Positions 16,201 to 41,010 of a stretch of DNA of 64,000 nucleotides are shown here, in pieces. The position numbers and the translations under genes are program-made. Under the pieces are notes generated by a model that saw nothing but the letters and a program-made list of their open reading frames with translations, was not told the origin of the DNA and did no database searches. The stretch comes from Trypanosoma brucei. Its lineage: Eukaryota. Positions within the stretch are counted from its first letter, which is position 1, and the number at the start of each line of letters is the position of its first letter. Location: the NCBI GenBank assembly GCA_000002445.1, contig AE017150.2:640001-704000 (forward strand), given 5' to 3'.

Positions 16201-19200
16201 GTCCAAGAATCCATCGGCTCCCACGCTATGACCAAGAAGTAAAAGTAAAAGGTCCTCGCTGAAACTGTGTGGCTCCAGGGCGGTGGCTACGGTGGCTGGG
16301 TGTTGCATTACTTCCGCACGGAGCTCCTCGTTGAGCCGCAGCGCCCCAAGGAAGAGGTGTGTAGCGTACACAACGCAGGTAGTTTCTGCAAAGCGCGATA
16401 CACATACGACGAACCAGTTGAGGTCCACGAGACGCGAAAAGACGGAAAGGAATGCGTCACTCACGCGACTACACTCGATGAGGCACCTCAGAATTGCTAA
16501 AGAGACGTTGTAGGCTGTTTTATGTGACGCTTGAATTTGTGTAAAACGAGCTCGCGGAAGTTTCAACCGCTGCTTTTGTTTGCTCTGCGCATCCACCTCT
16601 GCAGGTGTAAGGACGGCTGCTGCTGTCATGAATGAACTCACCAGGTTGGTTTCAAAGCCACACGCGATGATGATGTGCTTTAAATTAGAAATCACACGAT
16701 TCAGGACGGTGAAGGGGAGCGACAGCCGGCTGTAAGACAAACTGTTGAGTATACCATCCACAAAGCGAAATGGGCGTATGTACTGCACGTTGTGATCAGC
16801 AAAACGGCAAGAGAAGACGTCAAACATTTTCCCCACGCGCTCTGTTACGTGCGTAGCGCTTTCGAGTGGCATCGCAGCGAGCAGCTCCATGTCTCCCAGT
16901 AAATGGTCAAAGACAAGACGATTTATAATAAAGGGATGAAATTCGTTGCCTGCCCGCACTTCCGCGGTAGCAAGATGCACCAGACTATCACAGACTGCTG
17001 GTGTGATTAGATGAGCTGAGCGACGAAGATAATAATGCAACATCGCGTAAGTGCGGAAGTCAGTTGCACTAGCATTTGCCGTGCAGCGCAAGGTTGTGCA
17101 CAGGAGTGATGTATTTCGTTCAAGCTCAGCCGAGTCCTTTGATTTCCCTATCCAACGCAGTAAGTGCATAAGTCCACCTCGGTTACTGAAGAAACTCTTG
17201 TAATCGATCCAACAACGCGGTGGCTGAACGCATCCTCCAATTGCTTTAGCAGTGATCATAGAACAACCCTCCGCGCTACGGAACAATGTGTTCAAGAGCA
17301 CTTGGCCGTCATCTACTTCGCATGGGCTGAAGTGCGCAACGCAATCCCCAACAGGGGAGACACTTCGTGACCCTGAAATCTCCCTTGGCACTTCACAGGG
17401 AAGGAGTTTACACACGCCTGCTTCATGACTCCTGCCAGCCAAGTGAGCTTCTACTTGGGGGGTTATAAGTTCTTCCTCCCACAAACTTATGTTTCCAATA
17501 GAATAGAGGGCGTTTGGCACTACCGTGTTGACGAGGCCAATGTGAATCAAAGCCTGCGACCCTGAGTGGAAGTAAGGCAGCGAACACGTACCGATCTTCA
17601 TAGCGTTGAAGTACACACTGACAGTGTGAGCAACACTCATCACGATATGAAAATGTACCCACTCTCTGGGGGCAAGTCCCTTCAGCATTCCGGGTTCGCT
17701 CAACTGCACCGTTTTACCAGCGTACTCAATATGCACGCTCTCGCCCCCCAATAGAAATACGCATGTTGGTGAGCGCAGCGTCCCGTCAATTCCCACGAAT
17801 TGAAAAATATTTACCCGAGGGTATATTTCTTCGAAGCGAAAACATGAAGCCATGGAGAACCCCTTCTTTGGCCACTCCCCAACAGTAATGACCACACCAC
17901 CAGACCAACTGAACCGCATTTCACTACGCTCCGAAGCATTTGACAAAATAGGCGTCCAAAACGCCTTCAAATCTTCCGCATCACCGGAAGAAACTAGTGG
18001 CAACCGCTGCTCCGCTGAGGTGGCATCAAGCTCAAGGTATGGCACTAGTGACGCGTGCCCCATCTCTATTGCCCAGTCCAACAAAGCATCGCAGCGCACA
18101 ACTGCGGTGGCGCGTAACACGTCCCGCACAGCGCGGAGTACATCATTTTCCAACTCCGAGGCATGCACATGCATATGGCGTAGCAGAGGTGGGAGCAACT
18201 CCATGAACACGGGTTTCCTTAGGCAGCAGTTCGGGTGGGGTAGTGACAACTGGCCGTAAGTATTCAACTTAGATGAGGCATTTCCAGCACTGTCATAGGT
18301 CGACATTGCCGCATCGAGAACTGCCTGCACGATGAATACGATGTGCTCCACGCTCTTAATGGAAGCAAGACTGCTGGAGAATACTTGTGCCAGGTTTGTA
18401 TTTGAAAGGTGAGCGCCGAGACCGTAGACGGGCTCAGCTACTGAGAGGAAGCAGAACAGTTGGCGAATGAGTTGCTTGAACTGTTTCAATTGATTGGATA
18501 TCTTCAGCACGCGCTCCATCACTACTATCACGGCATCTACACAATTGAATTTAAATAGCCACACCTGCCGTTCGTATTTGGCAGCAGCGGCAAGCCCGTC
18601 TGAGGTCAGCTGACTGGAAAGGAATGAAAGTAGGTCCAACAGTAGGGCGGGTGACGCCCCGCGAATAAGCTCCTCGAGAACTACATAAACCTCACTATGT
18701 GAAAGGCTACAAGAGAGGGATGCGGATCCTAATCTGGTCAACAGCTCACCCTTGGCTGACACAAGGTTGAGCAACATTTCCAATTCCCTCGCAGAAAGGA
18801 AGCGTGGATTCCTCTGTAGGAGAAGCGCCAACACGCCACGTAAGTGGACAACAATATCATCGCTCTCTTCCAGTTGCTGGTTCCCAGAAAGGCTGACCAG
18901 TTCACCTTTTCCGGAGCTGCTCGCACTCACACCACCATCATCCGCACCACTTCGATGTTCCCGCACTAATATCTGCTGAATAATTGATGTCTCACCGTCG
19001 TCCAAGATGTTTCGCAGAAGTTCCGGAAGAACCTCCTGCGAGCGTTTGATATTTGCTTCGTCGACGTTGAGTGCCAGAACGGTGTACCACAGAGCGGTAG
19101 CTTGGGACATTAAGCGCCGTGACAACTCCCTTTCCTCGTTGGATTCCATGGTGTCAAGATGTTTTAATAATAAGGGCGGGAGTTCTATGATGTCCGCGAC

Positions 19201-21012
19201 GTCACAAGGACGCGGTTGCACGCGAAGTTTACCGTACAAGTGCAACAGTGCCGCGGTGACACGGTGTAACAATGTTAAGAGCACCAGTCTCTCTTCAGCC
19301 TCCATCGGTGTAGAAGTGGACTGCGACCGTCGTACGCATTTGAGTGACAATGAGAGAATGCACTGAACTACACAATGACCTTCCACCGCAACAAAGGCAT
19401 CCTTGCTTCTCATTGTTATTTGTATTAGAGACTCCACAATATGCTCCGTCAATGAAGTCGACATGATGGCAGTCTCGAGTGCGTCCTTGAGTACTTGTGT
19501 GATGCTGCTAGTTATGGTGATGAATGGTTTATTATTGTACCACCACGTGCTGTCCAACTCTGATCCTAGTTGTGAATTTTGCAAAGATTCTTCAGCACCA
19601 CTGTTCCCCAAGAGACCCCCGAGTGACTCATCGCATGCGCCGCCATAAGATTTCGCCCAAAAAACGGATGGAGTACATTGAAGCGTGACAACCCTAAACA
19701 ATGTCGGATCTGCGCTTAGTAACTCAGCGCAGTTCTCTAAGAGCTGCTTCAGACTTCCAGCCATATCATGCTTCAGTTGGTGCCGCAAAAATGCATCACG
19801 GCGAGCGCCAAGGGGTGTGGACGAGCTGCAACCTTTAGTAGAATGCAGCAACTTACACAGCCCCCTCCAAGCAGAAATTACATTCTCGTACATAGCGATC
19901 CGCACTTCCGGAGGTGCATTCACCGGCAAACCGTCTTTCCTTTCTGGCATGAGGGAGCGAGCGCTCAGTTCAATAATGAGACAGAGCGCTGTGATAACTG
20001 TGGGACTCTCGTATCCGGCTGCCATTTCCACAACGATAAGCGCAACCTCCAGTGCCTTTCTGTTGAGTTCGTCGTACACATTGCCACGACCCCTGGTGAG
20101 CAAATCAACCAACTCACCTTTCCCCAACCTCTCCAGTGACTCAGTATTTTGAAAAATCACAGGGAGTGCAAGAGATGGATCAGTTGGGGCTATTGAAACA
20201 GATGAAGTCAACATACCATTATCGTCCTGCAATGGCTTGTCATCGTACACATGTGGACGGATGAGCGAGTTGTGAGCAATACGAATACGGAGCCCATGAA
20301 TCAAGTTGACAACAAGCGGCTTCGGCTCCGTATGCATGAGGGCACGAGCGCAATCAGCGCTAGTCATGGAGCATTCCTCCAATATACCTAAAATCTCACG
20401 CACGGTACAAACTAAAGATGAAGCAAGACCCGTCTGTTTCGCGTATGCGCGCTGCGCGGCACTGCAGAAATCCTGAAACACAGCTGTCATCCACCGGAAG
20501 TGTTGTTGATTAATCAATATGTCGTGCATGTGAATGCAAAGGTCATTTCCCGCATCGCTGTCGCCGTTCATTAATTTGGTACATCTGCTGGGCGTGCAAA
20601 ACGCCCCGATGAAAGATAACACATGATCATTTCCAAGTGATGTTACTCTCTCGAGCAATGTCGCAGAGGAGCTACTGTTCCCGTCATTAGTTAACCTTTG
20701 AGACGCGTAATTCAGTAGTCCCTCGCACAATCGATACAGTAAGCAGCATGCATCGCCAGAAACCTGTGAGAGGAGTTGCAACTTATTCTCCCGCATGATT
20801 CGCCATAATAGAGTTGCTGCTTCCTTCCAACCATTTCGTTCTTCCATTGAAATACCCGCAGCTGATGAGACTGTGCCTGACGAGGAGGTTTTATCATGCG
20901 AAGATTTCATCTCCTGCTCACGCCGACGACTATCTGCAACCTCTAACACACTAGCGGCGCTTTTGAAGAACTTCTGCGCTGTGGAGAGATCAACATCGCA
21001 ACCATTATCCAT
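10279..21012 (-). CDS. BEACH domain-containing protein with C-terminal WD40 repeats (LYST/neurobeachin-like), 3577 aa
   Basis: Uninterrupted 10.7 kb ORF. BEACH core motif ILDYNQYPIFPWVIADYRSSTLDLS. WD40-like repeats at the C-terminus (e.g. LLTGHEDGSISLWR). All other-frame ORFs inside it are short. Confidence 0.8.
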   Translation of the reverse strand: MDNGCDVDLSTAQKFFKSAASVLEVADSRRREQEMKSSHDKTSSSGTVSSAAGISMEERNGWKEAATLLWRIMRENKLQLLSQVSGDACCLLYRLCEGLLNYASQRLTNDGNSSSSATLLERVTSLGNDHVLSFIGAFCTPSRCTKLMNGDSDAGNDLCIHMHDILINQQHFRWMTAVFQDFCSAAQRAYAKQTGLASSLVCTVREILGILEECSMTSADCARALMHTEPKPLVVNLIHGLRIRIAHNSLIRPHVYDDKPLQDDNGMLTSSVSIAPTDPSLALPVIFQNTESLERLGKGELVDLLTRGRGNVYDELNRKALEVALIVVEMAAGYESPTVITALCLIIELSARSLMPERKDGLPVNAPPEVRIAMYENVISAWRGLCKLLHSTKGCSSSTPLGARRDAFLRHQLKHDMAGSLKQLLENCAELLSADPTLFRVVTLQCTPSVFWAKSYGGACDESLGGLLGNSGAEESLQNSQLGSELDSTWWYNNKPFITITSSITQVLKDALETAIMSTSLTEHIVESLIQITMRSKDAFVAVEGHCVVQCILSLSLKCVRRSQSTSTPMEAEERLVLLTLLHRVTAALLHLYGKLRVQPRPCDVADIIELPPLLLKHLDTMESNEERELSRRLMSQATALWYTVLALNVDEANIKRSQEVLPELLRNILDDGETSIIQQILVREHRSGADDGGVSASSSGKGELVSLSGNQQLEESDDIVVHLRGVLALLLQRNPRFLSARELEMLLNLVSAKGELLTRLGSASLSCSLSHSEVYVVLEELIRGASPALLLDLLSFLSSQLTSDGLAAAAKYERQVWLFKFNCVDAVIVVMERVLKISNQLKQFKQLIRQLFCFLSVAEPVYGLGAHLSNTNLAQVFSSSLASIKSVEHIVFIVQAVLDAAMSTYDSAGNASSKLNTYGQLSLPHPNCCLRKPVFMELLPPLLRHMHVHASELENDVLRAVRDVLRATAVVRCDALLDWAIEMGHASLVPYLELDATSAEQRLPLVSSGDAEDLKAFWTPILSNASERSEMRFSWSGGVVITVGEWPKKGFSMASCFRFEEIYPRVNIFQFVGIDGTLRSPTCVFLLGGESVHIEYAGKTVQLSEPGMLKGLAPREWVHFHIVMSVAHTVSVYFNAMKIGTCSLPYFHSGSQALIHIGLVNTVVPNALYSIGNISLWEEELITPQVEAHLAGRSHEAGVCKLLPCEVPREISGSRSVSPVGDCVAHFSPCEVDDGQVLLNTLFRSAEGCSMITAKAIGGCVQPPRCWIDYKSFFSNRGGLMHLLRWIGKSKDSAELERNTSLLCTTLRCTANASATDFRTYAMLHYYLRRSAHLITPAVCDSLVHLATAEVRAGNEFHPFIINRLVFDHLLGDMELLAAMPLESATHVTERVGKMFDVFSCRFADHNVQYIRPFRFVDGILNSLSYSRLSLPFTVLNRVISNLKHIIIACGFETNLVSSFMTAAAVLTPAEVDAQSKQKQRLKLPRARFTQIQASHKTAYNVSLAILRCLIECSRVSDAFLSVFSRLVDLNWFVVCVSRFAETTCVVYATHLFLGALRLNEELRAEVMQHPATVATALEPHSFSEDLLLLLLGHSVGADGFLDLLHSSKSLHLQLDSALGSSLHDSDTAITPIFFRLLMLHLSASLTRPLLFRPGPISQVGGRRLLRSFRLFKYLHLAVVCSRLMLGIYVKRLSHRPTGAVPDACSSLWWNPTLSRDSSNTHLPEAAGGASEHWAQAKDSSLPVVTRSLWHRPSFIVVGIATYIWRRVQRSRYARLLRNDIPFLLIDGGGARGRAQKEEMCGTLFILKTLLQISMQPNAFALMTRSPFQVATLAFFGSFLRKEDVMAKSGELASAMHDFGCREIMRLRGAVETSALQKQEVDTDGKKGSAADSIFGILDLKTPLYADSEDNAYEDDAYEESVEGDDCQTQNGKCCRSSSSMESGIRKVPPTPQENVLSGIGEVENVALPCHMSPSLPLTNLPELSESTHTHDDVPQSGTVVSTLERSDAAPPTLISDPFESVRSLDIRKTRFSPFARGFTGFEERDGCELEEEEGNEDLLLAETIGSVVRPDVLQSHSLASLLEPAVDILSNIVASSLQAMPARTAPANPYSYGACGYLLFQLILITGTMANEEEGASVLINFFMHQVLELVATRKSPKTQSALQLPPETGGRMKSSLPLSRSTESLADNGQRVDECAASVPMENEMNGGIAYAGIISNIFAFNVCAFNDLLVDLLSFHVVELSTIAPYFVRLLLYARVSWNLSDLLEIRLQIVKICVAAINRKPVSEMSLEEMGLIHTMLTHVLDSPWPMKPLMACLIGSLMRVYDDPSSKDTMNPDSRKRKEVITLCLRRIALVYQGSKDLKKAVTVNSLASRVSIYEGFVSALLSQDETNAIVAFDVYISSNTSKLKAVMSGRLKMKVELAVNHFLKKRSFYVNQMRLFNESYNSTAKLSNGYSVAVLVQAYNGRFSSRVGSIARLQPAQLHWLAVPRSSLSRGDSHLSEAFRIDSRHKRSTILTASTFFANAESDDMKGVSAEDHITILNTSSCEPQVCHISALIPPVAVRCRPYVDCGSVPFIDPRCKVTSSAAVLLQHLLEPNEVLRYISNGFRVNGIHVAPCLILVTNVAVKVFSFSRITEKGDVFLYDYEGNGSNNLGGDCDEETDEVNASSRGGEGGVQKGQKQRSHNTTRGFAVSMTNKLQRFLTDGGTKGRRRREHEEHEDGTKVAQSVRQATGHPCKSLYWCYLVRNIRSIRVGLYMHQDTAIFLDVMYSDGLMLSLVDPRQSMNTRARDEFLEVLQEVIGTQRCTIHDHGKRISNMRNMLAGWGGRSVSTFEYLFFLNRAAGRTILDYNQYPIFPWVIADYRSSTLDLSSDSTYRDLSRPMGAQTKERRRSVEDLYQQMMEVAQQLGDGGVAAMELTQPFHHGTHYSTSGGVLYYLIRMEPFTTFARIFQGGDFDVASRLFDTIDGSFQSCVNGPADCKELTPEFFLDGSFLVNMNRCNFGTKSDGTAVDDVKLPPWAKDSAQVFTAVMRYILESDRVAHSIHHWIDLVFGVCRRGKLAVDCHNVFQRMTYGEEVVKALKESQNSRDIDVIVAEVDNFGQTPMQLFQEHHPPQSDLRLLVSGSSESNPTASLSSGIFTVVSTSSTAKKGDHRYKNSTNTAGSNSSFACNNSIASTSSFASRTVTSKLHGARDPSPKVHLMMEFVAAGRQSRFTLKDLTPGSLMTLPVAAVAFCNTQREPVVGFATTRSGEIACCYRYLIPVDDEDYLICFDLGADTMIYIDLKGGDLLSTMRYSTLLEPSANISCTCVCCRETLVAVGSTTGTIYCLRPSMDSGVLTLSSTLCHHMHAIAGLTIDTKYGRMVSFTVSGNDAPIVWCVQQERVVMLHRLNVVHALGHLFVDEDDSRVVASVIDPLTSNTIVVTRRHLLIFDSNGDRYGVGSLSATEGTKTPMQGNGKLHGAVHSFDGSCTAAITAVTPYNTLEWAYGTQLLLTGHEDGSISLWRAVRLPPDGVTHGNIVSVTHHAIIVDGSCQANLGSVTAMQQQQWGEPAFLIGYGSGKVKALSFATPYGGKA

Positions 21013-22199
21013 TCCTCCGAAAACTTCTCTTTCTTATTTTCACTTTTATTTGCTTTCTCACCAGAATGAAAATATTATTCGACTTTCGTGTTATGTCGTT
21101 GTTCTATTTCTTTGCTTCCCGTCCAAATTCACTGTTTAGACGTACCAACGACTACTATACTAATTAATGTATTACTCCAACCTTCCTTCACTCGGCCCCA
21201 AACCTATATATATATATATATATATATAATTTTTTTTTTTGAGGTGTGACGGATATTTTTATTATCCTCTCCTCGCCTTTTCCCGTCTTGGATTTGGAGC
21301 CCTGCCAATATTTCGCCGCTACAACAACAACAACGTCACGAGTTCTCTTCTTTTTTTTTTTGTTGTCTCCTCACCCTTTCCTTCCCCGTTTTTTCAACTA
21401 TATTTTACAAATACAAATATGTATTTGTTGCTTTCGTTTTTGAGAGTCGTGCTTAATATATATATATATATATCTTCAAGCACAAGGAGCAACGCCGTGC
21501 AAATCACTGCAGGTTCACTACGACTTTGCGGCAATACGTGTGGAATGAATTCCCTTTTCTTTTTCTCTGCCGCATCTTTTGTGGTAAATGAAGTACAATT
21601 TATTATCGTATCGTATCAGCATTACGCACATGTGCGTGTATGTGTATATGTATGTGTAATACAACAGAAAACAAAGAAGCGGAAAGAAGAGTAATATTTT
21701 TTAAAAAGGGAAAGTGGTAAAAAAGCATCGAGGAAAATGTGAGAGAACAACTTTTTATTTTTTTATCTTTGAAATGAGGGGGGGGGGAAGTTGAGAAGAA
21801 GACAAATAACACGATTGAACATGACAGTTAATGAAGCGGCAGTGACGCCTGCAGCACAGAATTAAATGGAAAATGAAATGAAATAATAAAAAAAAATTGC
21901 ATGAACACCTCCCCTCACCTCCTCTTCCTTCTACTCCCTTCTTTTTATATTATTATTATTATTTATCCCTCCCTTCTTGCAGAGACTGTAAACAATACTG
22001 GATGAATTTCATTTTATTTTTTTTTAAATTTTCCTTTCCCTTTTCTTTTTTTCCTCCTTTTGAATTTTAATTCTCTTCATTGAAAACTTGTACAAACCCG
22101 TATAAATAAATACACACAAACACACAGTTGTAAATAACTAAATATAATTAATATATTTATATATTTGCATATTGGGAATTATAAACTTACTCGCATTGA

Positions 22200-22700
22200 A
22201 TCCATCATCGTCCCGATGTTGCGAAGATACGAAGCAAAAAAAAAAAAAAGGAAAGAAAAAAAGAAAGAAAGACAGGGAAGACAAACAAACACACACAAAT
22301 AGAGAGAAAGAGAAAGAGAAAGAGAAATAAAGAGGTACGGTCATGCACGGGTAGGTGATAAATAATAATAATAATATTAACAAAAAAAACAATTATGATG
22401 GTAATAACAATAATAGTACAAGATCAACAATATATGTACATATACAAATATAAATATATAAATAAATATATATATATATATATAAGCAAATAAGCAAGGG
22501 AGGGAGAAAGAGGAAGAGAAAGAGGGTAAAAGACAGAAAAATAGGGGGGGGGGGGAGAAAATGAAAATCGAAAATCATAAAAGAGGAAGAGGGGAGGAGG
22601 GGGAAAGAAGAAAGAAAAAAGAAAAAAGAAAAGGACTCACACGATTCGAGCCGAGGGGACTGACAAGTAAAAAAAAAAGAGAAAGCTGATGTACAAACAA
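22200..22700 (-). promoter_or_regulatory. very long polypyrimidine (coding-strand) region in the UBE2S-BEACH intergenic tract
   Basis: Plus strand is about 90% purine over roughly 500 nt, with (GA)n-like and (GAAA)n-like runs plus G12 and A14 homopolymers. Lies 1.2-1.7 kb upstream of the BEACH ATG. Confidence 0.35.
22543..22554. repeat. G12 homopolymer (C12 on transcribed-sense strand); second G10 run at 21778-21787
   Basis: tagggggggggggg agaaaatg read directly, with a nearby G-rich ggggaggagggggaaag. Confidence 0.85.
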
Positions 22701-23361
22701 ATCAAATACACTACAGAAGCCACCCATACAAAACAAACAAACAAGGGTAAATACAAGCGTAAAACTGAATTAAACTAAATAATGAAATGAATGGAAGAAC
22801 ATTTAGATAATACACAGAAAATGAACAGCAGGAGGTGAGAAAAAAAAAGTTAAAAAGAGAATTTTTTAAAAAAAAGATGAGTCACTGGAGTTGGAAATAA
22901 TATAAATGCGGATTCATCACTCACATTACCTCTCTCTTCTTTTCATCATGCCTTGCATGCACTTAATGCTGCTGCGTCTCTCACGCAAACAAATCTGCGT
23001 TACAAAACCGTGGATTCTTTCTTTTTTTAAAAAAAAAATTATTATTTCTCCCCTTTTATATTGAATCCCAAACGGTACGGTGGCAAGTGCCCCAAAACAG
23101 TTCTTCACCTTCACTTATACAAACTTATACAAAATGTTACGTATAAATGAATATACAAATCAAAGAAACAACAACAACAACAACCCTTACTTTAACTTTA
23201 CTTGTGCTCTCTTGCATTTTCATCATTCGTTCGATCATTCTTTTGGTTTTATTATTTGCCTCAAACCTACGCTAATTCTACTCTTATCTCTCTATTTTTT
23301 TTTCTTTACTTTTGCATCACAGTTGTGTGAGCAACGCAAGGGCGGAACAAATTCACATTTT

Positions 23362-23363
<2 letters not shown>

Positions 23364-23433
<70 letters not shown>

Positions 23434-23439
23434 TTTTTC
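23364..23439. repeat. (CT)~31 dinucleotide microsatellite followed by T14
   Basis: ctctctct... run of about 62 bp then tttttttttttttt. Lies in the 3.9-kb ORF-free UBE2S-BEACH spacer. Confidence 0.9.
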
Positions 23440-23509
23440 CCCCTCTCCTTCACCTGTTGTTATAATAAACAAAAATAAATGGTAGGTAACTATAGAAATA
23501 TATATATAT

Positions 23510-23541
<32 letters not shown>

Positions 23542-24927
23542 ACAGTGAAAGTTCGTTACAATTTCAAATAAGCGAAAACAACAGCAACAGCAACAAAACA
23601 GGCAACAAACAGACACACGAAAAATTGAAAAATTAAGTAACGGAGATTTAAAACAAGAACAAAGAAACAACTGGATGCCACCGCTCATGAGCAGAAGGCC
23701 ACAGAAAATTGTTACGCAACTTGAATAAAATGATCGAACAAAAAAGTGAGAAGGTAACAAAAGAAAAAAAAGAAAAAAGAAAGAAGAGAAAATTTATCTC
23801 CTCTGAAGCTCCATCCGACAAATTGATGAAACACAAGTACAAACGGCAGAAGACGCGGAAGAGCAGCCGGAAATTGGCATTTGACGAGTAATTTATTTTT
23901 CTTTAAAAAAAAAAGCAAAATCAAAACACCTTCACATATAAAAATGAAATGAATAGATAAACGAATATTTATATGTTTTAATTATATACCATGATTGATT
24001 TTTTATGTGGCTACTCAACTGCTCAATCTATTTTCCCTCTCCCTCTCTCCTTTTGTTTTGTTTTGTTTTCTTTTTTCTTTTCTTTTCATTTCTTTTCCAC
24101 TGTGCAGTAATAAAAATATTTGAACATTTAAGAAAAAACAAATGCCGACTCGGTTTGTGCTTGCACTGCTCTCAACCCTTCGTTCTATTTTTTTCCTTTT
24201 TTTTCCCCCTACCTCTTAGCGTAAACAAACTGGCACCAAAGTTAACTTTTTCAGTCTACAAATACAATAATATCATACACTAATTTATTTTTTCATCTTG
24301 TCTAATTAGTAAGTCCCCTACTTGTTTTTTTCTTTGTTATCATTATTTGTATACAAACGCCGACTAGGGTAAAAACAAAACAAAACAAAAACAAAAACAA
24401 CAGCAATAAAAATCGACCCCTTGTGCACTCGAATCCGTTTCTTTTGTCTCATTTTTTTAAAAAAAAACTGGAAGGCTTCCCCGCGATGAAATAAAACACG
24501 GGAAGCGAACAAGCGAACAGAAGGAAAAAAAAAGAAACGGCGTTCATGCGTATTTTTAAAAATTTCTTTGACACATTTTATCTTCTGTTGTATACAAGAG
24601 TTTACCTACCATTTCTCACCCCTTTGCTTTAACAATTTTCCACCGCAACGTAAATTAGATGTGCTGGGAACCTTTTTTTTAAAAAATTATTGAAAGATGA
24701 TAATTCTCTTTTTTTTTTCTTTCCTTCTTTTGTTTCTGTTTCTTTTCGTTTTCCACCCCCTTTTCATTCTCTGTTTTGCCTCCCATACAAACCGCAACAC
24801 AACAAAAACATGAAACTCGCTCCCTCCCCCCTCCTACAAAAAAGAAAGAGAAAAAGAGAAAAAAAAAGACACAAAAAAAACAAGAAAAGAAATTGTGATT
24901 AAACTTCATCTATCTCTCTCTCTCCCA

Positions 24928-25683
24928 TCAAATACGTCTGAGTGCTGCCCGCTTCTTCTCCACAGCTTTTTTTGCCGCTGTGGCTGCTGCTGCTGCCGCT
25001 GATGATGATAATGATAATGATGAGGAAGCCGGTAATTCCCCCAATGTCCCTTTATTGTCTACATTGTTCATATGAAGCGAAAGCCTTAAACCACCTCCAC
25101 CCACTGCGTTATTGCTGTCATTTTCCTCCTCATCATTACATTTGCCGCTGCTCGTCACCCCGCCGTTTTCTTGAAAGCCATCGACTCCATTAAAAGGCCG
25201 TTGGGATTCCATTGGAGCCCTCCCACTTTTTATCGCATGTACTTTTGTCATCATATCTGCCTTGCGCCTGTATGCATCATAATCCTCCATCAGGAGCCGT
25301 GCTGCCTCTTCATTTAGCGCACTTTCTGCATTCGGTTCAATAAGAAGACACCGCACAATCGTGAGTACATGCCGCAAACCCAAACTTGGATTCCAGTCCC
25401 TTTTGAGTACATTCACACAAATGTCTCCCTTTTCTGCTATGTTGGGATGAAATATTTTGGTCCGGAATACACCCCGTGGTGGCACCTCCGGATATCCCTC
25501 ATCAAAATGAAACACAACTTGAAATGAGCCGCCAGCGAAGGGAGTTCCTTCAGGTCCAGTGATCTCAAATAACAACTCGCTGAGATCATCAGATCTCACC
25601 AACCGAATCCCTTCCGTGGGATTCGAATTAATATCTTGCACTTGTCGCATTATGAGGTGCATGGCAGCCGGTGAAACGGGCAT
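24928..25683 (-). CDS. UBE2S: ubiquitin-conjugating enzyme E2 S (UBE2S/E2-EPF-like) with basic C-terminal tail
   Basis: UBC fold with HPN motif and catalytic Cys in [56 protein letters not shown] aligns closely with human UBE2S ([36 protein letters not shown]). C-terminal Lys/Ala-rich extension ends KKRAALRRI, resembling the UBE2S C-terminal ...LRRL tail. Confidence 0.8.
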   Translation of the reverse strand: [251 protein letters not shown]

Positions 25684-26966
25684 TGCAAATACGTATGTGC
25701 GAAATCCTGTAAGTTATATCTGTTAATATTAATATCCTCTAATAACAGCAGTAATAGTTGTGGTGATGGTATATATTTTTATTACTATTATTATTACTAT
25801 TGTTATTATTAGTATTAATATATTACACTCAAGAGAATATTCACCTATATCGGTTCAAATCTCTTTTTTCTTGTATTGATACTACTTTTTTCTTTTCGCT
25901 CAGTTTTTCCTTTCTCTGTTGATTATACCCCTCTTGTGAAGTGTGAGACGGTCAAATAATAATAATAATGCACCCACTCCCCCCAAAAAAAAACAGCAAT
26001 AAAAACGAAGTGTCAAAGAAGCAGAAGTGGAGTAGCAGACGATACGGGAAATAAAACCCTGCTGATGAAAGTAAAAAAGAAATATTACTGCTTTAGTATC
26101 TAAAGCATACATATATATATATATATATATATATAGGCGCAAAATAAACATATCATTCACACACAACTCAAATGTACAGATGCAGCCGCGGCGTGAAAAG
26201 AGAGCCGGGGGAGTAAGCGATAGTAATACATTGATTACAGAAACATATTTGTGTCTGCAGCTCTACCACACTCAGAAATGCAGCAAAAACTAAAAAAAAA
26301 AGGTCAGCACACCGACCATCACGACTATTTTTGAGCCCTTTTCCTTTTTCCCCCTTTCTCTCTAACATTGTGTGATATGTGAAAAGACATTAAATAGTAA
26401 TAATAATAATATAAACGTATATTATTTTTAAAACAGTACAAGTGACACCTAATTTTTGCATAGCGCAAAGAACTGAAATAATATTTCTGGCCTTCGTTTG
26501 CTTTTCCCCCCCTCTCCGACCATATTTACGACACGCGTGCCTGAGTGTAATATTACCGCTTATGATCAGTCGGTCATCTCGTTGTGGTACGCCGCCCATA
26601 GACGTCGCCTAGCGAATAACTGCAATACCATTGAAAAAACAAAGCTTAAGAGAAAAGTTAACAGCATTGTTTAAAGAATAAGTAAAGAGATGTTGCAGCG
26701 AAACCCGCAAGTGGTGTTGACGCCTAACTGAAGCTTACATGCGGAATATTTCACATGTTATGGGCGCAGCGGTGGCAACTTCGTGAGTTTTGTGGATAAT
26801 CTCCCGCGCTGCCTGCCACTCTCCTTTGAGAAAATCGTAAAGGTCGGGTATTAAAAGAAAAAAAAATGTACAAGTGCATGCAGAAGGTGAATGGGAATTG
26901 GGATAATTATATACCGCCACATGAGATAAAATTGACGAATGGATTGTGCCCATAATAGAACTCTCA

Positions 26967-28730
26967 TCATCCGTCTGTTTTGACACTATTCGTAGCTAAA
27001 TTTTCTTCTATTTTCTCTTCTCCGTGCCCCTCTTTTAGTTCCGAATTTCTCTCGCTATGTTTCTCGCCGATGGCGAGACAACCTTCTCGGAACTTTCTCA
27101 TCAAATCAACGTCCCACTCACAAGCTTCTATGATTTCAACTTCCCGTGCATGACAACGCTCCATCAAAGCGAACACAAAAAGGTGTTTCTTGGCTCGCTC
27201 CGCGTTCTCTTCCTCTTCAATCGACCGCCGCTTGATCTCTTCTGAAAATAACGCAATATCATCGAGCTCCATCGCGCAGCGTAGAACCGTGCGGCCATGT
27301 TCCTCGAAAAGAGCCAACGCATCTCTGTCATTTTGGCATCTCAAAACAAGTTCTCTAAAAAGCGTTACACCTGTTGCACGTCCACACACCAAGCGCCGTG
27401 TCATTTCAATACCATACAATTTTGGGTATACATCAACCTGAGATTGCATAAACAGCCATGCATGGACTTGTGCCACTTGTGTAAGCAATTGAAACGACTC
27501 CAACTCTACACGGAACAGTGTCTCCATTGTGCTCAACAAGTGGCTAAAAAGTTCTTGCTCAAGAGAAGCATGCTCCTCCATGATCTCGCTGCGTGACTTT
27601 TCCTCGCGCTCGTGAAGTTGCTGCAAGCTAACGCGGTAACGCTCCTTGCGTCCCCTTGTCAGGTACACCCAACGCCTGAGATAATTCTTCAATGGGGCAC
27701 TTCCAAGCAACATGCCTCGATGCACAAAAACAAACAAATCCCAGATGGGTTGGAATGCTTTGTTCTCCTCCTCAAGTACATAACTTCGGTTGATTTCTTC
27801 TCTGTAATTTATCGCCTGGAGTCCATTCAGCATCGTGTCTTGCAGTAATTTTTGCACCGGCTCGCCGTATTCACTCTCCTTGTCACAACTATCCACGAGG
27901 TGCAACGCGCCCAGGTGTTGAGAAAATAACTTAACAGCTTCAAGGTGTTCCTCATCTACAATCGTTTCGCGAGCGACAAGTTCTTCGCGTATGTATGACA
28001 ACCGAAGTGTCGCAAGCTCCCGTGGCCCAAGTGACTTCCACTCACCGTTCACAAGTATTGTCCTCCGTTTAAACCTTGCCTCATCCAGCAATGAGGCGTG
28101 GTTTGCAAAATCTGCTGACAGACGGCTTGCTCGACCGGGAACAAAAACGCTCGGGCCCCATCCTGAACTTGCAGATGAAGCAACACGTGTCTCTGTAGCA
28201 TTATCGCTTATATGAATACCATGGTTACAAAATGTATTTCCCCACGGAGATGGGGCCGTAGGGTAATTCACCGGCGGGCCTTGTGTATGAACTGATGTGC
28301 AGCCGCCGAAGCTCGTTGGCCGGATGATGGAACCTCTATTATTGCTATACCGCGTACCAAGTTTTCTTAAAGCATCGCCAACCAAGTAATCAAGGCGTGT
28401 TTTCAACGACTTGGACCACAATGGATGCTCACTCACATGAACCACCGTCCGCACGTTATACGTTGGGCACGTTGATACTGGTTTAAGCGCTAACTTTTCC
28501 CAAGATGTAAGCGGCCTGCTGAACTGTCCAAACGGCTCAGTGGGCTGATCCCCATAGCTTTCAGTTGGGCAACTTCGATATGTCATGGTGTAATCACGTA
28601 AGCTTTCCCCTTCTACATCACGGCCTTCAGATGACGAAGTTCCCAGGGGGGGAAGAAATGACGTGTGACTCACGCGAGGAGTCTGTGGGCACTCACCAGG
28701 CGGATTCCCATCTCCTTCAGTGTAACTCAT
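26967..28730 (-). CDS. hypothetical protein, 587 aa, no confidently recognisable domain
   Basis: Long ORF co-oriented with neighbours and non-repetitive. C-terminal half predicted helical. Weak, unverified resemblance to GEF-like helical bundles in the segment RELATLRLSYIREELVARETIVDEEHLEAVKLF. Confidence 0.55.
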   Translation of the reverse strand: MSYTEGDGNPPGECPQTPRVSHTSFLPPLGTSSSEGRDVEGESLRDYTMTYRSCPTESYGDQPTEPFGQFSRPLTSWEKLALKPVSTCPTYNVRTVVHVSEHPLWSKSLKTRLDYLVGDALRKLGTRYSNNRGSIIRPTSFGGCTSVHTQGPPVNYPTAPSPWGNTFCNHGIHISDNATETRVASSASSGWGPSVFVPGRASRLSADFANHASLLDEARFKRRTILVNGEWKSLGPRELATLRLSYIREELVARETIVDEEHLEAVKLFSQHLGALHLVDSCDKESEYGEPVQKLLQDTMLNGLQAINYREEINRSYVLEEENKAFQPIWDLFVFVHRGMLLGSAPLKNYLRRWVYLTRGRKERYRVSLQQLHEREEKSRSEIMEEHASLEQELFSHLLSTMETLFRVELESFQLLTQVAQVHAWLFMQSQVDVYPKLYGIEMTRRLVCGRATGVTLFRELVLRCQNDRDALALFEEHGRTVLRCAMELDDIALFSEEIKRRSIEEEENAERAKKHLFVFALMERCHAREVEIIEACEWDVDLMRKFREGCLAIGEKHSERNSELKEGHGEEKIEENLATNSVKTDG

Positions 28731-29477
28731 TTCTTCTTTTTTACAGATATCGAAATATCAGACACGCAGGTACGCCCTGGTGTATTGAGACAAAGAGCCC
28801 ACGTAAACAGTGCAAGAAAAAAAAATAATTATTATAAAGAAAGAAAGGAGGATGCGACTTGAAGCGATAATTCACTCTATCTTCCCCCCCTCTCTCTTCT
28901 TTAGAGTATGTTTCTCCCAGAAAGAAACAAAAACCTAGAAATACTCTATGGTAGAGTGAAAGGTGCTCTACTCACCTCTTCCTTCCTTCCTTCCTTTGAA
29001 CTTTCTTTTCTACTATTGAGTATATTGAAAAATCATAGGTGATGTGACGGAAATATTACAAGCATTTTTTTAAAAATTCATACAGGGATTCAAAAGGAAC
29101 GAGACAAGAAAGAAATATGGTCAAGCGCACCTGCAACATGAGGCAGTACAACGGCTCCAGGACAGTTCACCCTTATAATACACACGAACGCAGGTGGAGT
29201 GAGGGTTCAACACTCCCTTCTGTAACTTCGAGCCTCTCTATTCCAGCTTCACCCACATCAACGGGACAATCTATGGGAGAGACACACATATGACAAATTT
29301 TAACGTGCACTCATTCTATTAACAGAACAGTATGCAGGGCAAAATGGACCTCGTTTCGAGGAACGAAAAAAGAACAAGGAAAAGAGCCGTAATTCCAGTT
29401 TCTGCTGACGCCACGGCAGCAAACGGGCTGGAGATATGGATAGTTGTATAAACGTACGCAAGACACCAGTCAGTCAC

Positions 29478-31703
29478 TCAAGTGAAATAAGTCGAATCGT
29501 CTCGGTTTAGTAGCGATCGATTTGTCCGGCATAACTTATCACTCCCGTCCAGAAGCTCCCTCGTGCGCTCAAACAGAGCCTGAAGGTTCCGCTCCACTTG
29601 GTTTGTTTGCTGCCATTCTGTCTCCTCTAGAAACTGTAGTTTAAGCTCATTTGTGCCTTCCACAACGGCATTCCGCGCCTCAGGAGAGAGGCGTACGAAC
29701 CGACGAAAGCGCAAAGCGTACGCCACATACTGAAACATCGGGTTATTATTGAGACACTTCGACAGACGTATGGAACACTGAGTAGCGTCACGGAAGAGAC
29801 ACGTAGCCACAAGGTTCTCTTCCTTGTCATCCCCACCTGGAATAAGATATAAAATCGTTCGGTCGTCAAAATGACACCGCACCGTGCCATTCGTTAGTGC
29901 GGCAAACGTACCGATCCCATCGATGGCACTTGTGAGGAACACAACACTTCCAGCGGTAGCCGCAGCATTGATTGCGGGGTCGTCGCTTACCATACGCATT
30001 TGCGTACGGTCGATGGCGGCTTCTGCTGCATCTGAAGGTGATATCGGGCCTATGGTCAACCCAGACGTGGAGCATGCGGTGGCACTTCTAGCAATCCTGT
30101 CGGCCCCGTTTGCAAGAGCAAACCTCAAATCAAAGCCCGCTATTTCGTCAAACATTTCCCGTTGCTTTTCTACACGCGCTGCAGCAATATTCCGTTGTGA
30201 TATTTCAATGCAAGAACCACCCACTTCCGGGAGGTAACGACCACGCTGAGCAACAGCAAATGGCGCCTCTTCCAATACACTACTAAAGTAAAGTAGTGAT
30301 CCTCCAGCCCTTGACATGACAACACCATCGCTGTACTCGCCTTCTGGGACTGGCGGTGATGATGGATCTTCTGGAGGGAGTTGACTGTTTCCATTATTAC
30401 TCAACGGTCCCTCATGTTGCTCCGGAGGAATAACAGGTGGGAGGCCTAATAGTCCATCCGCGCTTTGATGGTACACCTTGTATCCACCACTGCGACGCCA
30501 GTGATGCACGACATAACTTTCACCTATTGGTTCCACCAACGCAACGCTTTCATCTTCTCGTATCATACAAAGTACGGATCCGGCTACGAAATATGGTTCG
30601 CGGGGCCCTGACGTTGCTGATGCGTCAACAGTACGAGTATTCTCCCTATTAACACCACTATTCGGCCAACTTGCTTTACGTCCTTCAGGAAGGCACAATG
30701 AATGTCGCACATCTTTGGTCTCGCAAACACCAAGGCCCCAGTAAATTGCATGCGGTACACGACCCATAGGGTCGGCGTCGTAGCGCCACACAACCCGCTC
30801 TCGCGGATTACGTATCTGTCCATTGCACATGGCATTTTGCATCTGTGGGTTGGCAATGAGTGCGTGTACATGATCATACCGGATGGAAGAGAAACGGCAA
30901 GGTTTATGATCTTGCGCTGTGCGAGGTGTTGTCTCGTAGTACATGCGACACTCTTCATCTTCAGTAGCTAATGCTGCGGCCTCTGCTGGGGTATGATCCG
31001 CTGGTAACTCCTCATCGAACTGGAGGGCAACCTCAAGCATACGAATCCACTCACGTGGCGGGTCAATGAGAGGAAACGTTTGCTCCATCCACACATAATG
31101 AAAGGCCCGTAGACTATCAACGGTCCCTGTGATGAACCCCCGTGAATCAGTGGGGCGAACAAAAATAGACCTTGCTCCGCTCCTCTCCACAGCTGGTGCC
31201 GGCCAACGCACTGAAAAAGTCATTCGTCCACCGTGAAGTGTCAGTGAGACACGTCGCAGTGCACACCACAGTGTGGCTCGCGATCCGCAACGCTCAAATA
31301 GCCTTCGGTCAACAGCTACCACGAGAGAGTCAATGGGGCCTGGGTGCCGCCACACTTCACATGGTGTCACTGTGAGCCCAGAAATGACACGTGGATGAGG
31401 AGAGTAGTAATTATATATCTGCAAAGCCTCACTTACCTTTTTCTCGTACTTTGAGAGAGTGAGGGCAGTAAAATAATAATCACCTCCCTTCCCTTCATCG
31501 CCTGTTTCGCTTATGTCAAGACGGCTGCGTGCCCCCATACTTCCATCAATAGCAACAAACGTTTGCATCTCATCACAGAATGAAAGCACCGTGCCATCCC
31601 CATAGACGAAATCTACCGAACTGTCGGTCCACGCACAGGCTTTTACAACATGATCAGCGACGGAAACCTCATTGTAGAATCTGCGAAGACTCATGACAGC
31701 CAC
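29478..31703 (-). CDS. hypothetical protein, 741 aa, no recognisable domain
   Basis: Long ORF co-oriented with the polycistron. Complex amino-acid composition. Internal other-frame ORFs are short. Confidence 0.55.
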   Translation of the reverse strand: MAVMSLRRFYNEVSVADHVVKACAWTDSSVDFVYGDGTVLSFCDEMQTFVAIDGSMGARSRLDISETGDEGKGGDYYFTALTLSKYEKKVSEALQIYNYYSPHPRVISGLTVTPCEVWRHPGPIDSLVVAVDRRLFERCGSRATLWCALRRVSLTLHGGRMTFSVRWPAPAVERSGARSIFVRPTDSRGFITGTVDSLRAFHYVWMEQTFPLIDPPREWIRMLEVALQFDEELPADHTPAEAAALATEDEECRMYYETTPRTAQDHKPCRFSSIRYDHVHALIANPQMQNAMCNGQIRNPRERVVWRYDADPMGRVPHAIYWGLGVCETKDVRHSLCLPEGRKASWPNSGVNRENTRTVDASATSGPREPYFVAGSVLCMIREDESVALVEPIGESYVVHHWRRSGGYKVYHQSADGLLGLPPVIPPEQHEGPLSNNGNSQLPPEDPSSPPVPEGEYSDGVVMSRAGGSLLYFSSVLEEAPFAVAQRGRYLPEVGGSCIEISQRNIAAARVEKQREMFDEIAGFDLRFALANGADRIARSATACSTSGLTIGPISPSDAAEAAIDRTQMRMVSDDPAINAAATAGSVVFLTSAIDGIGTFAALTNGTVRCHFDDRTILYLIPGGDDKEENLVATCLFRDATQCSIRLSKCLNNNPMFQYVAYALRFRRFVRLSPEARNAVVEGTNELKLQFLEETEWQQTNQVERNLQALFERTRELLDGSDKLCRTNRSLLNRDDSTYFT

Positions 31704-41009: not shown

Positions 41010-41010
<1 letters not shown>

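What the first reader, a model, noticed from the sequence alone, without database searches (positions are those of the whole stretch)
24928..25683. UBE2S-type E2 retaining the APC/C-docking style C-terminal tail (…KKRAALRRI)
The UBC core aligns closely to human UBE2S ([31 protein letters not shown].E.Y), and the protein carries the Lys-rich C-terminal extension typical of this E2. The ORF ends in ALRRI. In metazoan UBE2S the C-terminal LRRL peptide docks the E2 onto the APC/C for K11-chain elongation. Conservation of both core and tail would imply a UBE2S-APC/C chain-elongation module in an organism whose APC/C composition is divergent.
Basis: partly seen in the sequence, partly recalled or inferred. 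Interest (0 to 1): 0.5.

Follow-up and report, generated by a model that had tools for sequence, protein, structure and literature searches.

The report
Trypanosome UBE2S orthologue with docking tail
This Trypanosoma brucei gene encodes a clear orthologue of the ubiquitin-conjugating enzyme UBE2S, complete with the short basic C-terminal peptide that in humans docks the enzyme onto the anaphase-promoting complex. That peptide is conserved across eukaryotes, so this is an expected, not yet studied, member of a known family.

Summary
Window 24928..25683 (minus strand) is a 251-aa ORF identical to T. brucei TREU927 XP_951601.1/Q586X5, almost certainly Tb927.2.3720, annotated only as "ubiquitin-conjugating enzyme, putative".

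- **Core:** human UBE2S is the best solved-structure match by a wide margin: 165 bits against 97 for the next E2 family. An AlphaFold2 model superposes on UBE2S crystal structures at 0.9-1.7 Å. The catalytic and UBE2S-specific residues are present: HPN, Cys89, Lys94, Cys112, Ile115, Glu125/126, Arg129.
- **Extension:** an acidic, low-complexity, hypervariable linker (aa 151-235) is followed by a 16-aa basic peptide, [16 protein letters not shown].
- **Tail conservation:** 113 of the 120 best homologues (kinetoplastids, green algae, plants, vertebrates) end in L-[KR]-[KR]-[LI]. Trypanosomatids have a terminal Ile.

The tail is a pan-eukaryotic family feature, not a special retention in this organism. 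Docking onto the T. brucei APC/C (which has APC2 and a tentative APC4) and K11-chain elongation are inferred, not shown. The Leishmania orthologue UBC10 can be deleted. This is a new member of a known kind, of modest interest.

The parts
24928..25683 (-). Complete CDS (251 codons plus TGA stop at 24928..24930) of the T. brucei UBE2S orthologue, most probably Tb927.2.3720
   Evidence: ORF listing. Exact-sequence match to XP_951601.1 / Q586X5_TRYB2 on a 1.19-Mb contig. Gene ID inferred from the Burge et al. S1 table and the computed 26.12-kDa mass of the L. mexicana homologue.
25234..25683 (-). UBC catalytic domain, aa 1-150
   Evidence: Pfam UQ_con 1.9e-36, aa 11-144. AF2 pLDDT above 93 over aa 1-150. 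Foldseek TM 0.93-0.96 and rmsd 0.9-1.7 Å to human UBE2S crystal structures. 49.7% identity to human UBE2S over 145 aligned residues.
25441..25449 (-). HPN motif, aa 79-81
   Evidence: Invariant in the 74-sequence alignment. Coordinates verified by translation.
25417..25419 (-). Catalytic cysteine Cys89, equivalent to human Cys95
   Evidence: Alignment to human UBE2S. Invariant column. Codon checked.
25261..25350 (-). Crossover helix and helix-turn-helix, aa 112-141 ([30 protein letters not shown]). It carries the equivalents of human C118, I121, E126, E131/E132, R135, E139 and R147 (here Lys).
   Evidence: Residue mapping. The roles of these residues in the closed E2~Ub state and in APC2 contact come from PMC8804933.
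24979..25233 (-). Low-complexity acidic linker rich in Ser, Ala and Gly, aa 151-235
   Evidence: AF2 pLDDT about 50-60 with no secondary structure. Column entropy about 3.5 bits across homologues. pI 4.7. Length polymorphism between T. brucei subspecies.
25054..25092 (-). [13 protein letters not shown], aa 198-210. This is a degenerate copy of a linker motif, LR-x-[AV]-[ED]-x-x-N, seen in many euglenozoan-type homologues.
   Evidence: Regex survey of linkers. Coordinates verified. Function unknown.
24931..24978 (-). Basic C-terminal peptide [16 protein letters not shown], aa 236-251, the counterpart of the human UBE2S C-terminal peptide
   Evidence: Aligned with ...KKKTDKKRALRRL of vertebrate UBE2S. 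Entropy falls over roughly the last 14 positions. AF2 predicts a helix at aa 236-250 with pLDDT about 72.
24931..24942 (-). Terminal LRRI, aa 248-251, the counterpart of the human LRRL motif
   Evidence: 113 of 120 homologues end in L[KR][KR][LI]: LKRL 55, LRRI 28, LRRL 21, LKRI 7, LKKL 2. The LRRL requirement for APC/C binding in humans is from PMC5717348.

Best explanation
The gene encodes the Trypanosoma brucei orthologue of UBE2S. It has three parts: a canonical UBC catalytic domain (aa 1-150), a disordered and fast-evolving linker (aa 151-235), and a conserved basic C-terminal peptide ending in LRRI.

By analogy with human UBE2S, it most likely works as follows:
1. The enzyme is charged with ubiquitin on Cys89.
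2. Its free C-terminal peptide tethers it to the APC/C platform. In humans the docking site is the groove between APC2 and APC4.
3. The helix-turn-helix face (Glu125/Glu126, Arg129) rests on APC2.
4. Ubiquitin already attached to APC/C substrates, such as the mitotic cyclin CYC6, is extended into Lys11-linked chains that speed proteasomal degradation.

Shown here: orthology, the fold, conservation of catalytic and linkage-specifying residues, and family-wide conservation of the tail. Inferred: APC/C binding, K11 specificity, and the substrates. My confidence in the orthology alone is about 0.95. The confidence given below is for the whole mechanism.
For: Sequence and structure:
- Human UBE2S scores 165 bits, against at most 97 bits for any other E2 family in the PDB.
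- Pfam UQ_con scores 1.9e-36.
- The AF2 model has pLDDT above 93 for the UBC domain. Its 11 best PDB matches are all human UBE2S, with TM 0.93-0.96.
- Every named non-kinetoplastid hit in the top 120 is E2 S or UBC22-like, apart from uninformative 'hypothetical protein'-type names and one hit named UBC20. Only one protein per trypanosomatid species appears.
- Conserved residues: HPN, C89, K94, C112 (=C118), I115 (=I121), E125/E126 (=E131/E132), R129 (=R135), E133 (=E139), with R147 replaced by K.

Functional roles of those residues:
- In human UBE2S, C118 supports the closed E2~Ub state. E131/E132, R135 and R147 are needed for APC2-dependent activity (PMC8804933).

The tail:
- 113 of 120 homologues end in L[KR][KR][LI] after a hypervariable linker.
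- The human LRRL tail is required for APC/C binding and sits between APC2 and APC4 (PMC5717348; PMC8804933).

Supporting context:
- The purified T. brucei APC/C contains APC2, APC11 and a tentative APC4 homologue, and it controls cyclin B/CYC6 stability (PMC3606461).
- The plant orthologue UBC22 makes K11-specific di-ubiquitin in vitro, so this activity is not confined to animals (PMC4892721).
Against: - No E2 is mentioned among the proteins co-purifying with the T. brucei APC/C: searches of PMC3606461 for 'Ubc' and 'ubiquitin-conjugating' found nothing.
- The identification of T. brucei APC4 (AP1) is weak (Pfam E = 0.18), and its RNAi, like that of APC2 and APC11, gave no phenotype. The docking groove may therefore be divergent or dispensable.
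- The L. mexicana orthologue UBC10 (LmxM.32.2770) is not among the genes for which null mutants could not be obtained, nor among those named in the abstract as having life-cycle phenotypes.
- Tb927.2.3720 was not found in the text-held supplements of a T. brucei cell-cycle single-cell transcriptome study.
- The terminal residue is Ile, not Leu, and human E143 and L114 are not conserved.
- In Arabidopsis, ubc22 and apc phenotypes differ. Those authors concluded that UBC22 function is unlikely to run entirely through the APC/C.
Confidence: 0.62

Rival explanations
1. It is a genuine UBE2S-family E2, but in trypanosomes it does not work through the APC/C. It would build K11 (or other) chains on its own or with other E3s. 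The conserved basic C-terminal peptide would then serve another purpose: nuclear import, a different docking partner, or autoubiquitination and turnover control.
For: - No E2 was reported in APC/C purifications.
- The Leishmania orthologue is dispensable.
- Arabidopsis ubc22 phenotypes are not fully explained by the APC/C.
- UBE2S and UBC22 make K11 di-ubiquitin without an E3.
- The KKxxEKKR cluster resembles a classical basic nuclear localisation signal. This is my own inference and was not tested.
Against: - Conservation is strongest at the extreme C-terminus. Leu at position -4 is invariant and Arg at -2 is present in 111 of 113, with a hydrophobic final residue. That is the part needed for APC/C binding in humans, and an NLS or a set of lysine acceptor sites would not require it.
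- The APC2-contacting HTH residues are also conserved.
- APC2 and a candidate APC4 are present in the T. brucei complex.
Confidence: 0.3
2. It belongs to another E2 family (UBE2C, UBE2D or UBE2A-like), and the resemblance to UBE2S is superficial.
For: All E2s share the UBC fold, and UBE2A/B/D/N score 85-97 bits against this protein.
Against: - There is a 68-bit gap in favour of UBE2S.
- Identity to UBE2S is 48-50%, against 28-34% to the other E2 families among the structural hits.
- UBE2S-specific residues and the tail are present.
- UBE2C is not among the 60 best PDB sequences.
Confidence: 0.02
3. The LRRI ending is a chance resemblance in a low-complexity tail and has no function.
For: The preceding linker is low-complexity and evolves fast, even between T. 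brucei subspecies.
Against: - The chance expectation is about 1e-4 per protein.
- 113 of 120 homologues from several eukaryotic supergroups keep the ending, while the linker is unalignable.
Confidence: 0.01

Closest known systems
Human UBE2S (E2-EPF), the K11-specific chain-elongating E2 of the APC/C
   Same: - About 50% identity over the UBC domain.
- Same catalytic residues, donor-ubiquitin residues (C118, I121) and HTH residues (E131/E132, R135).
- Same three-part layout: UBC domain, disordered linker, basic C-terminal peptide.
- The tail KKRAALRRI compares with KKRALRRL.
   Different: - The terminal residue is Ile instead of Leu.
- One extra Ala lies between the basic cluster and the Leu.
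- The linker is longer (85 aa), acidic and unrelated in sequence, and it lacks the vertebrate GPQPKKHAGD motif.
- Human E143 is Ala, R147 is Lys and L114 is Thr.
- Loop 7 reads WNPSL rather than WTAEL.
- APC/C binding and K11 specificity are untested.
Arabidopsis UBC22 and its plant and green-algal homologues (UBE2S orthologues)
   Same: Same family and the same layout, with a tail ending in SLKRL or ALKRL. UBC22 makes K11-specific di-ubiquitin in vitro. Whether a UBE2S-APC/C module exists outside animals is likewise still open.
   Different: Different supergroup. The plant enzyme has genetic phenotypes in female meiosis and the gametophyte, whereas nothing is known for the trypanosome enzyme.
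Leishmania mexicana UBC10 (LmxM.32.2770), listed by Burge et al. 2020
   Same: Direct orthologue: about 60% identity over the UBC domain and a tail ending KKKALRRI. It is listed as the orthologue of Tb927.2.3720.
   Different: It is named only as a generic ubiquitin E2. UBE2S and the APC/C are not mentioned in that paper. It is not among the genes for which null mutants could not be obtained.
Emi1 C-terminal LRRL tail (vertebrate APC/C inhibitor)
   Same: The same four-residue C-terminal motif binds the same APC2/APC4 site.
   Different: Emi1 is an inhibitor that competes with UBE2S. No counterpart was looked for outside this window. No other ORF in the window ends in this motif.
Budding-yeast Ubc1, a functional analogue (from my own knowledge, not tested here)
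   Same: A second, chain-elongating E2 that works on the APC/C after a priming E2.
   Different: It builds K48 chains, has a UBA domain instead of a docking peptide, and belongs to a different E2 family. Yeasts lack UBE2S.

Membership tests
UBE2S / UBC22 family of E2 enzymes | UBC fold with an HPN motif and a catalytic cysteine | tested here: met
   Pfam UQ_con 1.9e-36. HPN at aa 79-81 and Cys89 are invariant columns. AF2 pLDDT above 93.
UBE2S / UBC22 family of E2 enzymes | Closer in sequence to UBE2S than to any other E2 family | tested here: met
   165 bits to human UBE2S against 97 bits for the next family. Among the top 120 database hits, the named ones outside kinetoplastids are 'E2 S' or 'E2 22-like', apart from uninformative 'hypothetical protein'-type names and one named UBC20.
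UBE2S / UBC22 family of E2 enzymes | Reciprocal relation: no other T. brucei protein is closer to UBE2S | tested here: inconclusive
   Indirect only. One T. brucei cluster appears in the top 120, and no other T. brucei E2 scores at or above the 181-188 bits of vertebrate UBE2S. A true reverse search of the T. brucei proteome could not be run with these tools.
UBE2S / UBC22 family of E2 enzymes | Structure best superposes on UBE2S | tested here: met
   Foldseek ranks 1-11 are all human UBE2S, with TM 0.93-0.96 and rmsd 0.9-1.7 Å. UBE2N, UBE2A and UBE2D follow at 28-34% identity.
UBE2S / UBC22 family of E2 enzymes | Residues for the closed E2~Ub state and the HTH face (human C118, I121, E131/E132, R135, E139, R147) | tested here: met
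   C112, I115, E125/E126, R129 and E133 are identical, and R147 is replaced by K141. Their functional roles are from PMC8804933.
UBE2S / UBC22 family of E2 enzymes | C-terminal extension ending in a basic peptide with a terminal LRRL-type motif | tested here: met
   The protein ends ...[14 protein letters not shown]. 113 of 120 homologues end in L[KR][KR][LI]. Ile at the last position is the trypanosomatid variant.
UBE2S / UBC22 family of E2 enzymes | Absence of the canonical RING-binding Phe in loop 4 (the UBE2D F62 position) | tested here: met
   The sequence is Y-P-E-V-P-P, against human UBE2S F-P-A-S-P-P. The alignment to UBE2D F62 rests on my own knowledge. The statement that UBE2S lacks standard RING-binding residues is from PMC8804933. 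Loop 7 keeps a Pro (WNPSL), unlike vertebrate UBE2S.
UBE2S / UBC22 family of E2 enzymes | Lys11-specific ubiquitin chain synthesis | not testable with these tools
   Needs a biochemical assay with Ub-K11R or K11-only ubiquitin. Shown for human UBE2S and Arabidopsis UBC22 only.
APC/C-associated E2 (UBE2S-APC/C elongation module) | Physical, tail-dependent binding to the APC/C at the APC2-APC4 groove | not testable with these tools
   T. brucei APC2 and APC4 sequences are not in the window, and no complex modelling is available. The published APC/C purification text mentions no E2.
APC/C-associated E2 (UBE2S-APC/C elongation module) | The partner complex contains APC2, APC4 and APC11 | not tested
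   From the literature only. The T. brucei APC/C has APC1, APC2, CDC27, CDC16, CDC23, APC10, APC11, AP1 (tentatively APC4, Pfam E = 0.18), AP2 and AP3 (PMC3606461).
APC/C-associated E2 (UBE2S-APC/C elongation module) | Cell-cycle phenotype or cell-cycle-regulated expression | tested here: inconclusive
   Tb927.2.3720 is absent from the text-held supplements of a T. brucei cell-cycle scRNA-seq study. [quoted passage not shown] No direct data exist for T. brucei.

The most novel reading that the evidence does not exclude
The tail-in-groove docking of UBE2S onto the APC2-APC4 platform dates back to the last eukaryotic common ancestor and still operates in the 'minimal' kinetoplastid APC/C. If so, K11 chain elongation is an ancestral part of mitotic exit. 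In addition, the euglenozoan-specific linker motif (LR-x-[AV]-[ED]-x-x-N, degenerate in T. brucei) and the trypanosomatid Leu-to-Ile change at the terminus would mark lineage-specific regulatory or co-evolved contacts, for example a degron or a second APC/C contact. These would stand in for the Emi1- and checkpoint-based control that trypanosomes lack.
Probability: 0.15. Interest if true: 0.5.

Novelty: new member of a known kind. Interest (0 to 1): 0.27.

Why it matters
Which E2 enzymes serve the APC/C of trypanosomes is unknown. That complex has ten subunits, two of them kinetoplastid-specific, and trypanosomes have no canonical spindle checkpoint. Tb927.2.3720 now stands as a specific, testable candidate for the chain-elongating E2, and its four-residue tail offers a clean separation-of-function mutation. 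The conserved tail also gives indirect support to the weakly identified T. brucei APC4, and to the idea that the UBE2S-APC/C module is ancestral in eukaryotes and was lost in yeasts. The practical impact is modest. The assignment follows from a routine homology search, and the Leishmania orthologue is dispensable, so it is not an obvious drug target.

Tried and rejected
- **Tail-only PDB search.** Searching the PDB with the last 26 residues, to align them directly with the UBE2S peptide in APC/C cryo-EM entries, gave no hits at E up to 10. The query is too short and low-complexity. BLASTP against gar UBE2S likewise aligned only the core. The tail correspondence therefore rests on the MAFFT alignments and right-justified statistics.\n- **Literature.**\n - 'UBE2S' plus 'Trypanosoma' returned only irrelevant co-occurrences.\n - The gene ID occurs in one paper, as a table row with a generic name.\n - The Leishmania E2 survey, the trypanosome cullin paper and the TbCDC34 paper do not mention UBE2S or this gene in the main text.\n- **Cell-cycle regulation.** The gene ID is not in the held supplements of the T. 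brucei scRNA-seq cell-cycle study. This is uninformative rather than negative, because long files may be truncated.\n- **Emi1-like competitor.** None of the other 70 ORFs of at least 80 aa in the window ends in L[RK]R[LI].\n- **Structured RNAs.** An Rfam scan of the whole window found nothing.\n- **Linker motif as an APC/C degron.** I considered a D-box (RxxLxxxxN) or KEN-type degron. The spacing does not fit the D-box consensus in most homologues, so I make no such claim.\n- **Functional gene neighbourhood.** I rejected this line. Trypanosome polycistronic units are not functional operons, and the neighbours are unrelated: a BEACH protein, eIF5B, RESC1/2, KAS and MCM.
Full report
**What is there.** Window 24928..25683 on the minus strand is an ATG-to-stop ORF of 251 codons. 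Its translation is identical, residue for residue, to T. brucei brucei TREU927 XP_951601.1 / UniProt Q586X5, annotated "ubiquitin-conjugating enzyme, putative", on a 1.19-Mb contig. The T. b. gambiense and T. b. equiperdum proteins differ only by a two-residue (SL) deletion in the serine-rich run, and equiperdum also has D143G.

The supplementary table of Burge et al. 2020 lists two chromosome-2 E2 genes in T. brucei. One is Tb927.2.2460, the SUMO E2, whose orthologue is 17.1 kDa. The other is Tb927.2.3720, orthologue of L. mexicana UBC10 (LmxM.32.2770), at 26.1 kDa. The L. mexicana homologue found here (P0014) has a computed mass of 26.12 kDa. The gene is therefore almost certainly Tb927.2.3720. 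All long ORFs in the window lie on the minus strand, as expected for one trypanosome polycistronic unit. The neighbours are functionally unrelated.

**Checking the observation.** Three details need correcting:
- Four residues, not two, separate RHVL from CLLI, as in the human protein.
- The extension is not Lys-rich as a whole. It consists of an 85-residue acidic linker rich in Ser, Ala, Gly and Asn (pI 4.7, three Lys) and a 16-residue basic peptide, [16 protein letters not shown] (4 Lys, 3 Arg, pI 11.7).
- The gene is on the minus strand.

**Family assignment.**
- Pfam finds only UQ_con, at 1.9e-36.
- Against all PDB sequences, the six best matches are human UBE2S constructs (2e-47, 165 bits). 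The next family, UBE2A/B, scores 97 bits, UBE2D about 92, and UBE2C is not among the best 60.
- Identity to human UBE2S is 49.7% over 145 aligned residues.
- In a search of about 5.8 billion proteins, the top 120 hits are one protein per kinetoplastid species, many unnamed protist sequences, and then proteins that their sources name "ubiquitin-conjugating enzyme E2 S" (fish, birds, JGI metagenome calls) or "E2 22-like" (plants and green algae). The remaining named hits carry uninformative names, and one green-algal hit is named UBC20. No second T. brucei E2 reaches the 181-188 bits of vertebrate UBE2S. The protein is thus closer to animal UBE2S than to any paralogue in its own genome.
- An AlphaFold2 model built on a 74-sequence alignment has pLDDT above 93 for residues 1-150. 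Its eleven best Foldseek matches in the PDB are all human UBE2S catalytic domains (TM 0.93-0.96, rmsd 0.9-1.7 Å, 47-49% identity), followed by UBE2N, UBE2A and UBE2D at 28-34% identity.

**Functional residues.** I mapped the protein onto human numbering.

| T. brucei | Human | Status |
|---|---|---|
| HPN 79-81 | HPN 85-87 | conserved |
| Cys89 | C95 | conserved |
| Lys94 | K100 | conserved |
| Cys112 | C118 | conserved |
| Ile115 | I121 | conserved |
| Glu120 | E126 | conserved |
| Glu125/Glu126 | E131/E132 | conserved |
| Arg129 | R135 | conserved |
| Glu133 | E139 | conserved |
| Lys141 | R147 | conservative change |
| Ala137 | E143 | changed |
| Thr108 | L114 | changed |

In human UBE2S, C118 supports the closed, active E2~Ub conformation. 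Charge swaps at E131/E132, R135 and R147 are defective specifically in APC/C-dependent activity, because these residues contact APC2 (PMC8804933). UBE2S also lacks the standard RING-binding residues. The trypanosome protein has Glu at the loop-4 position where UBE2D has Phe62; that position assignment is my own knowledge, and the sequence is.

**The tail.** In right-justified comparison, 113 of the 120 best homologues end in L-[KR]-[KR]-[LI]. The counts are LKRL 55, LRRI 28, LRRL 21, LKRI 7 and LKKL 2.
- Leu at position -4 is invariant.
- Arg at -2 is present in 111 of 113.
- Position -7 is always Lys or Arg.
- The linker columns from -45 to -17 have about 3.2-3.7 bits of entropy, close to random.
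- The seven exceptions are two truncated or read-through sequences and conservative variants: VRRI, FRRI, IKRL and KMRL.

All named trypanosomatids end in Ile. The bodonids Bodo saltans and Neobodo designis, green algae, plants and vertebrates end in Leu. The expected chance frequency of such an ending is about 1e-4 per protein, and no other ORF in the window has it. AF2 predicts a helix for residues 236-250 (pLDDT about 72) after a disordered linker with pLDDT 50-60.

The same data show that the tail is a pan-eukaryotic family trait, not something specially retained in this lineage.

**From anatomy to mechanism.** In humans, the LRRL terminus is required for UBE2S to associate with the APC/C. 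It binds between APC2 and APC4, at the site also used by the inhibitor Emi1. The UBC domain rests on APC2, and the APC11 RING presents the acceptor ubiquitin so that its Lys11 attacks the UBE2S~Ub thioester (PMC5717348; PMC8804933).

The T. brucei APC/C purified by Bessat et al. contains these subunits (PMC3606461):
- APC1, APC2, CDC27, CDC16, CDC23, APC10 and APC11;
- AP1, tentatively identified as APC4 (Pfam E = 0.18);
- two kinetoplastid-specific proteins, AP2 and AP3.

That complex controls the stability of the mitotic cyclin CycB2/CYC6. The components of the human docking site are therefore nominally present. The plant orthologue UBC22 makes K11-specific di-ubiquitin (PMC4892721), so the linkage specificity of the family is not restricted to animals.

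On this basis the most likely function is a tail-tethered, K11-specific chain-elongating E2 for the trypanosome APC/C. Only the sequence-level premises are shown here. Binding, linkage and substrates are inferred.

**Evidence that tempers the inference.**
- No E2 is mentioned in the T. brucei APC/C purification paper.
- RNAi of APC2, APC4 and APC11 gave no phenotype there.
- In L. mexicana, null mutants were obtained for all E2 genes except UBC3, UBC7, UBC12 and UBC13. UBC10 is not among the genes named in the abstract as having differentiation or infection phenotypes.
- The gene ID does not occur in the held supplements of a T. brucei cell-cycle scRNA-seq study.
- The Arabidopsis authors note that ubc22 phenotypes are not fully explained by the APC/C.

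Dispensability is not itself contradictory. In human cells APC/C activity is tuned by a combination of three E2s (PMC4785794 abstract). [quoted passage not shown]

The main rival is a UBE2S-type enzyme acting independently of the APC/C, with the basic tail serving nuclear import or another partner. I give it about 0.3. Its weakness is that conservation peaks at the extreme C-terminal L-R/K-R-L/I, and not merely in the basic cluster.

**Comparison with what is known, and novelty.** The protein passes every membership test for the UBE2S/UBC22 family that sequence and structure prediction can address. The biochemical and interaction tests could not be run. I found no paper in the searchable library that identifies a trypanosomatid UBE2S or discusses its tail. 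The gene appears only under a generic name, in a Leishmania E2 list and in one table of a heat-shock mRNA study. This is a new, unstudied member of a well-known kind. The assignment would fall out of any routine homology search, so the surprise value for a specialist is low. The value lies in providing a concrete candidate E2 and a clean tail mutant for the poorly understood trypanosome APC/C.

**Seen in passing.**
- Many euglenozoan-type homologues share a short linker motif, roughly LR-x-[AV]-[ED]-x-x-N. It is degenerate in T. brucei ([13 protein letters not shown], aa 198-210) and absent from plant and vertebrate proteins. Its function is unknown.
- Non-vertebrate homologues keep a Pro in loop 7 (W-x-P-x-L, as in UBE2D), which vertebrate UBE2S has lost.
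- A 7.6-kb stretch (39151..46754) has no ORF of 150 aa or more and no Rfam match.

Noticed in passing
window 25054..25092 (-), aa 198-210; also homologues P0017, P0036, P0037, P0048, P0053 and others: There is a short conserved motif inside the otherwise hypervariable linker of euglenozoan-type UBE2S homologues, roughly (G/P)LR-x-[AVLM]-[ED]-x-[TAN]-N. Examples are LRQAESTN, LRNVENAN and LRSLEGNN; Trypanosoma has LRNASESALN and Leishmania has LT[LP]SEANCHP. A strict regex hits 34 of 122 sequences. The T. brucei copy is degenerate ([13 protein letters not shown]). Plant and vertebrate homologues lack it, and vertebrates have DGPQPKKHAGD instead. It does not fit the D-box spacing, and its function is unknown.
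   Followed up: partly
window 24931..24933 (-), last codon; homologues: The C-terminal residue is Ile in every named trypanosomatid (Trypanosoma, Leishmania, Leptomonas, Lotmaria, Phytomonas, Porcisia). It is Leu in bodonids (Bodo, Neobodo), green algae, plants and vertebrates. This looks like a lineage-specific conservative change that may have co-evolved with the docking site.
   Followed up: partly
window about 24990..25010 (-), aa 221-229: T. b. brucei TREU927 has SSSLSLSSS where T. b. gambiense and T. b. equiperdum have SSSLSSS, a two-residue indel in a Ser/Leu microrepeat. The equiperdum protein also has D143G in the UBC domain.
   Followed up: yes
window 25387..25401 (-), aa 95-99 (RDWNP region, loop 7): Non-vertebrate UBE2S homologues keep W-x-P-x-L after the catalytic Cys: T. 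brucei WNPSL and Leishmania WSPTL, resembling the UBE2D RING-contact WSPAL. Vertebrate UBE2S has W-x-A-E-L. The loss of this RING-binding element may therefore be specific to vertebrates.
   Followed up: no
window 39151..46754: A 7.6-kb stretch between the RESC1/2-family gene (37639..39150, -) and an RRM-protein gene (46755..48218, -) has no ORF of 150 aa or more, only short low-complexity mechanical ORFs. There is no Rfam match anywhere in the window. It is probably a very long 3' UTR or intergenic region.
   Followed up: partly
window 1..64000: All long ORFs are on the minus strand, forming one polycistronic unit. Pfam content:
- TFIIS/PWWP protein (1498..2901)
- EF-Tu-like GTPase (6502..8919)
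- 3577-aa BEACH protein (10279..21012)
- the E2 (24928..25683)
- a 587-aa protein with no Pfam match (26967..28730)
- C5orf34-like protein (29478..31703)
- eIF5B-like GTPase (32844..35345)
- RESC1/2 RNA-editing protein (37639..39150)
- RRM protein (46755..48218)
- beta-ketoacyl synthase (51133..52701)
- MCM (54402..56840)
   Followed up: partly
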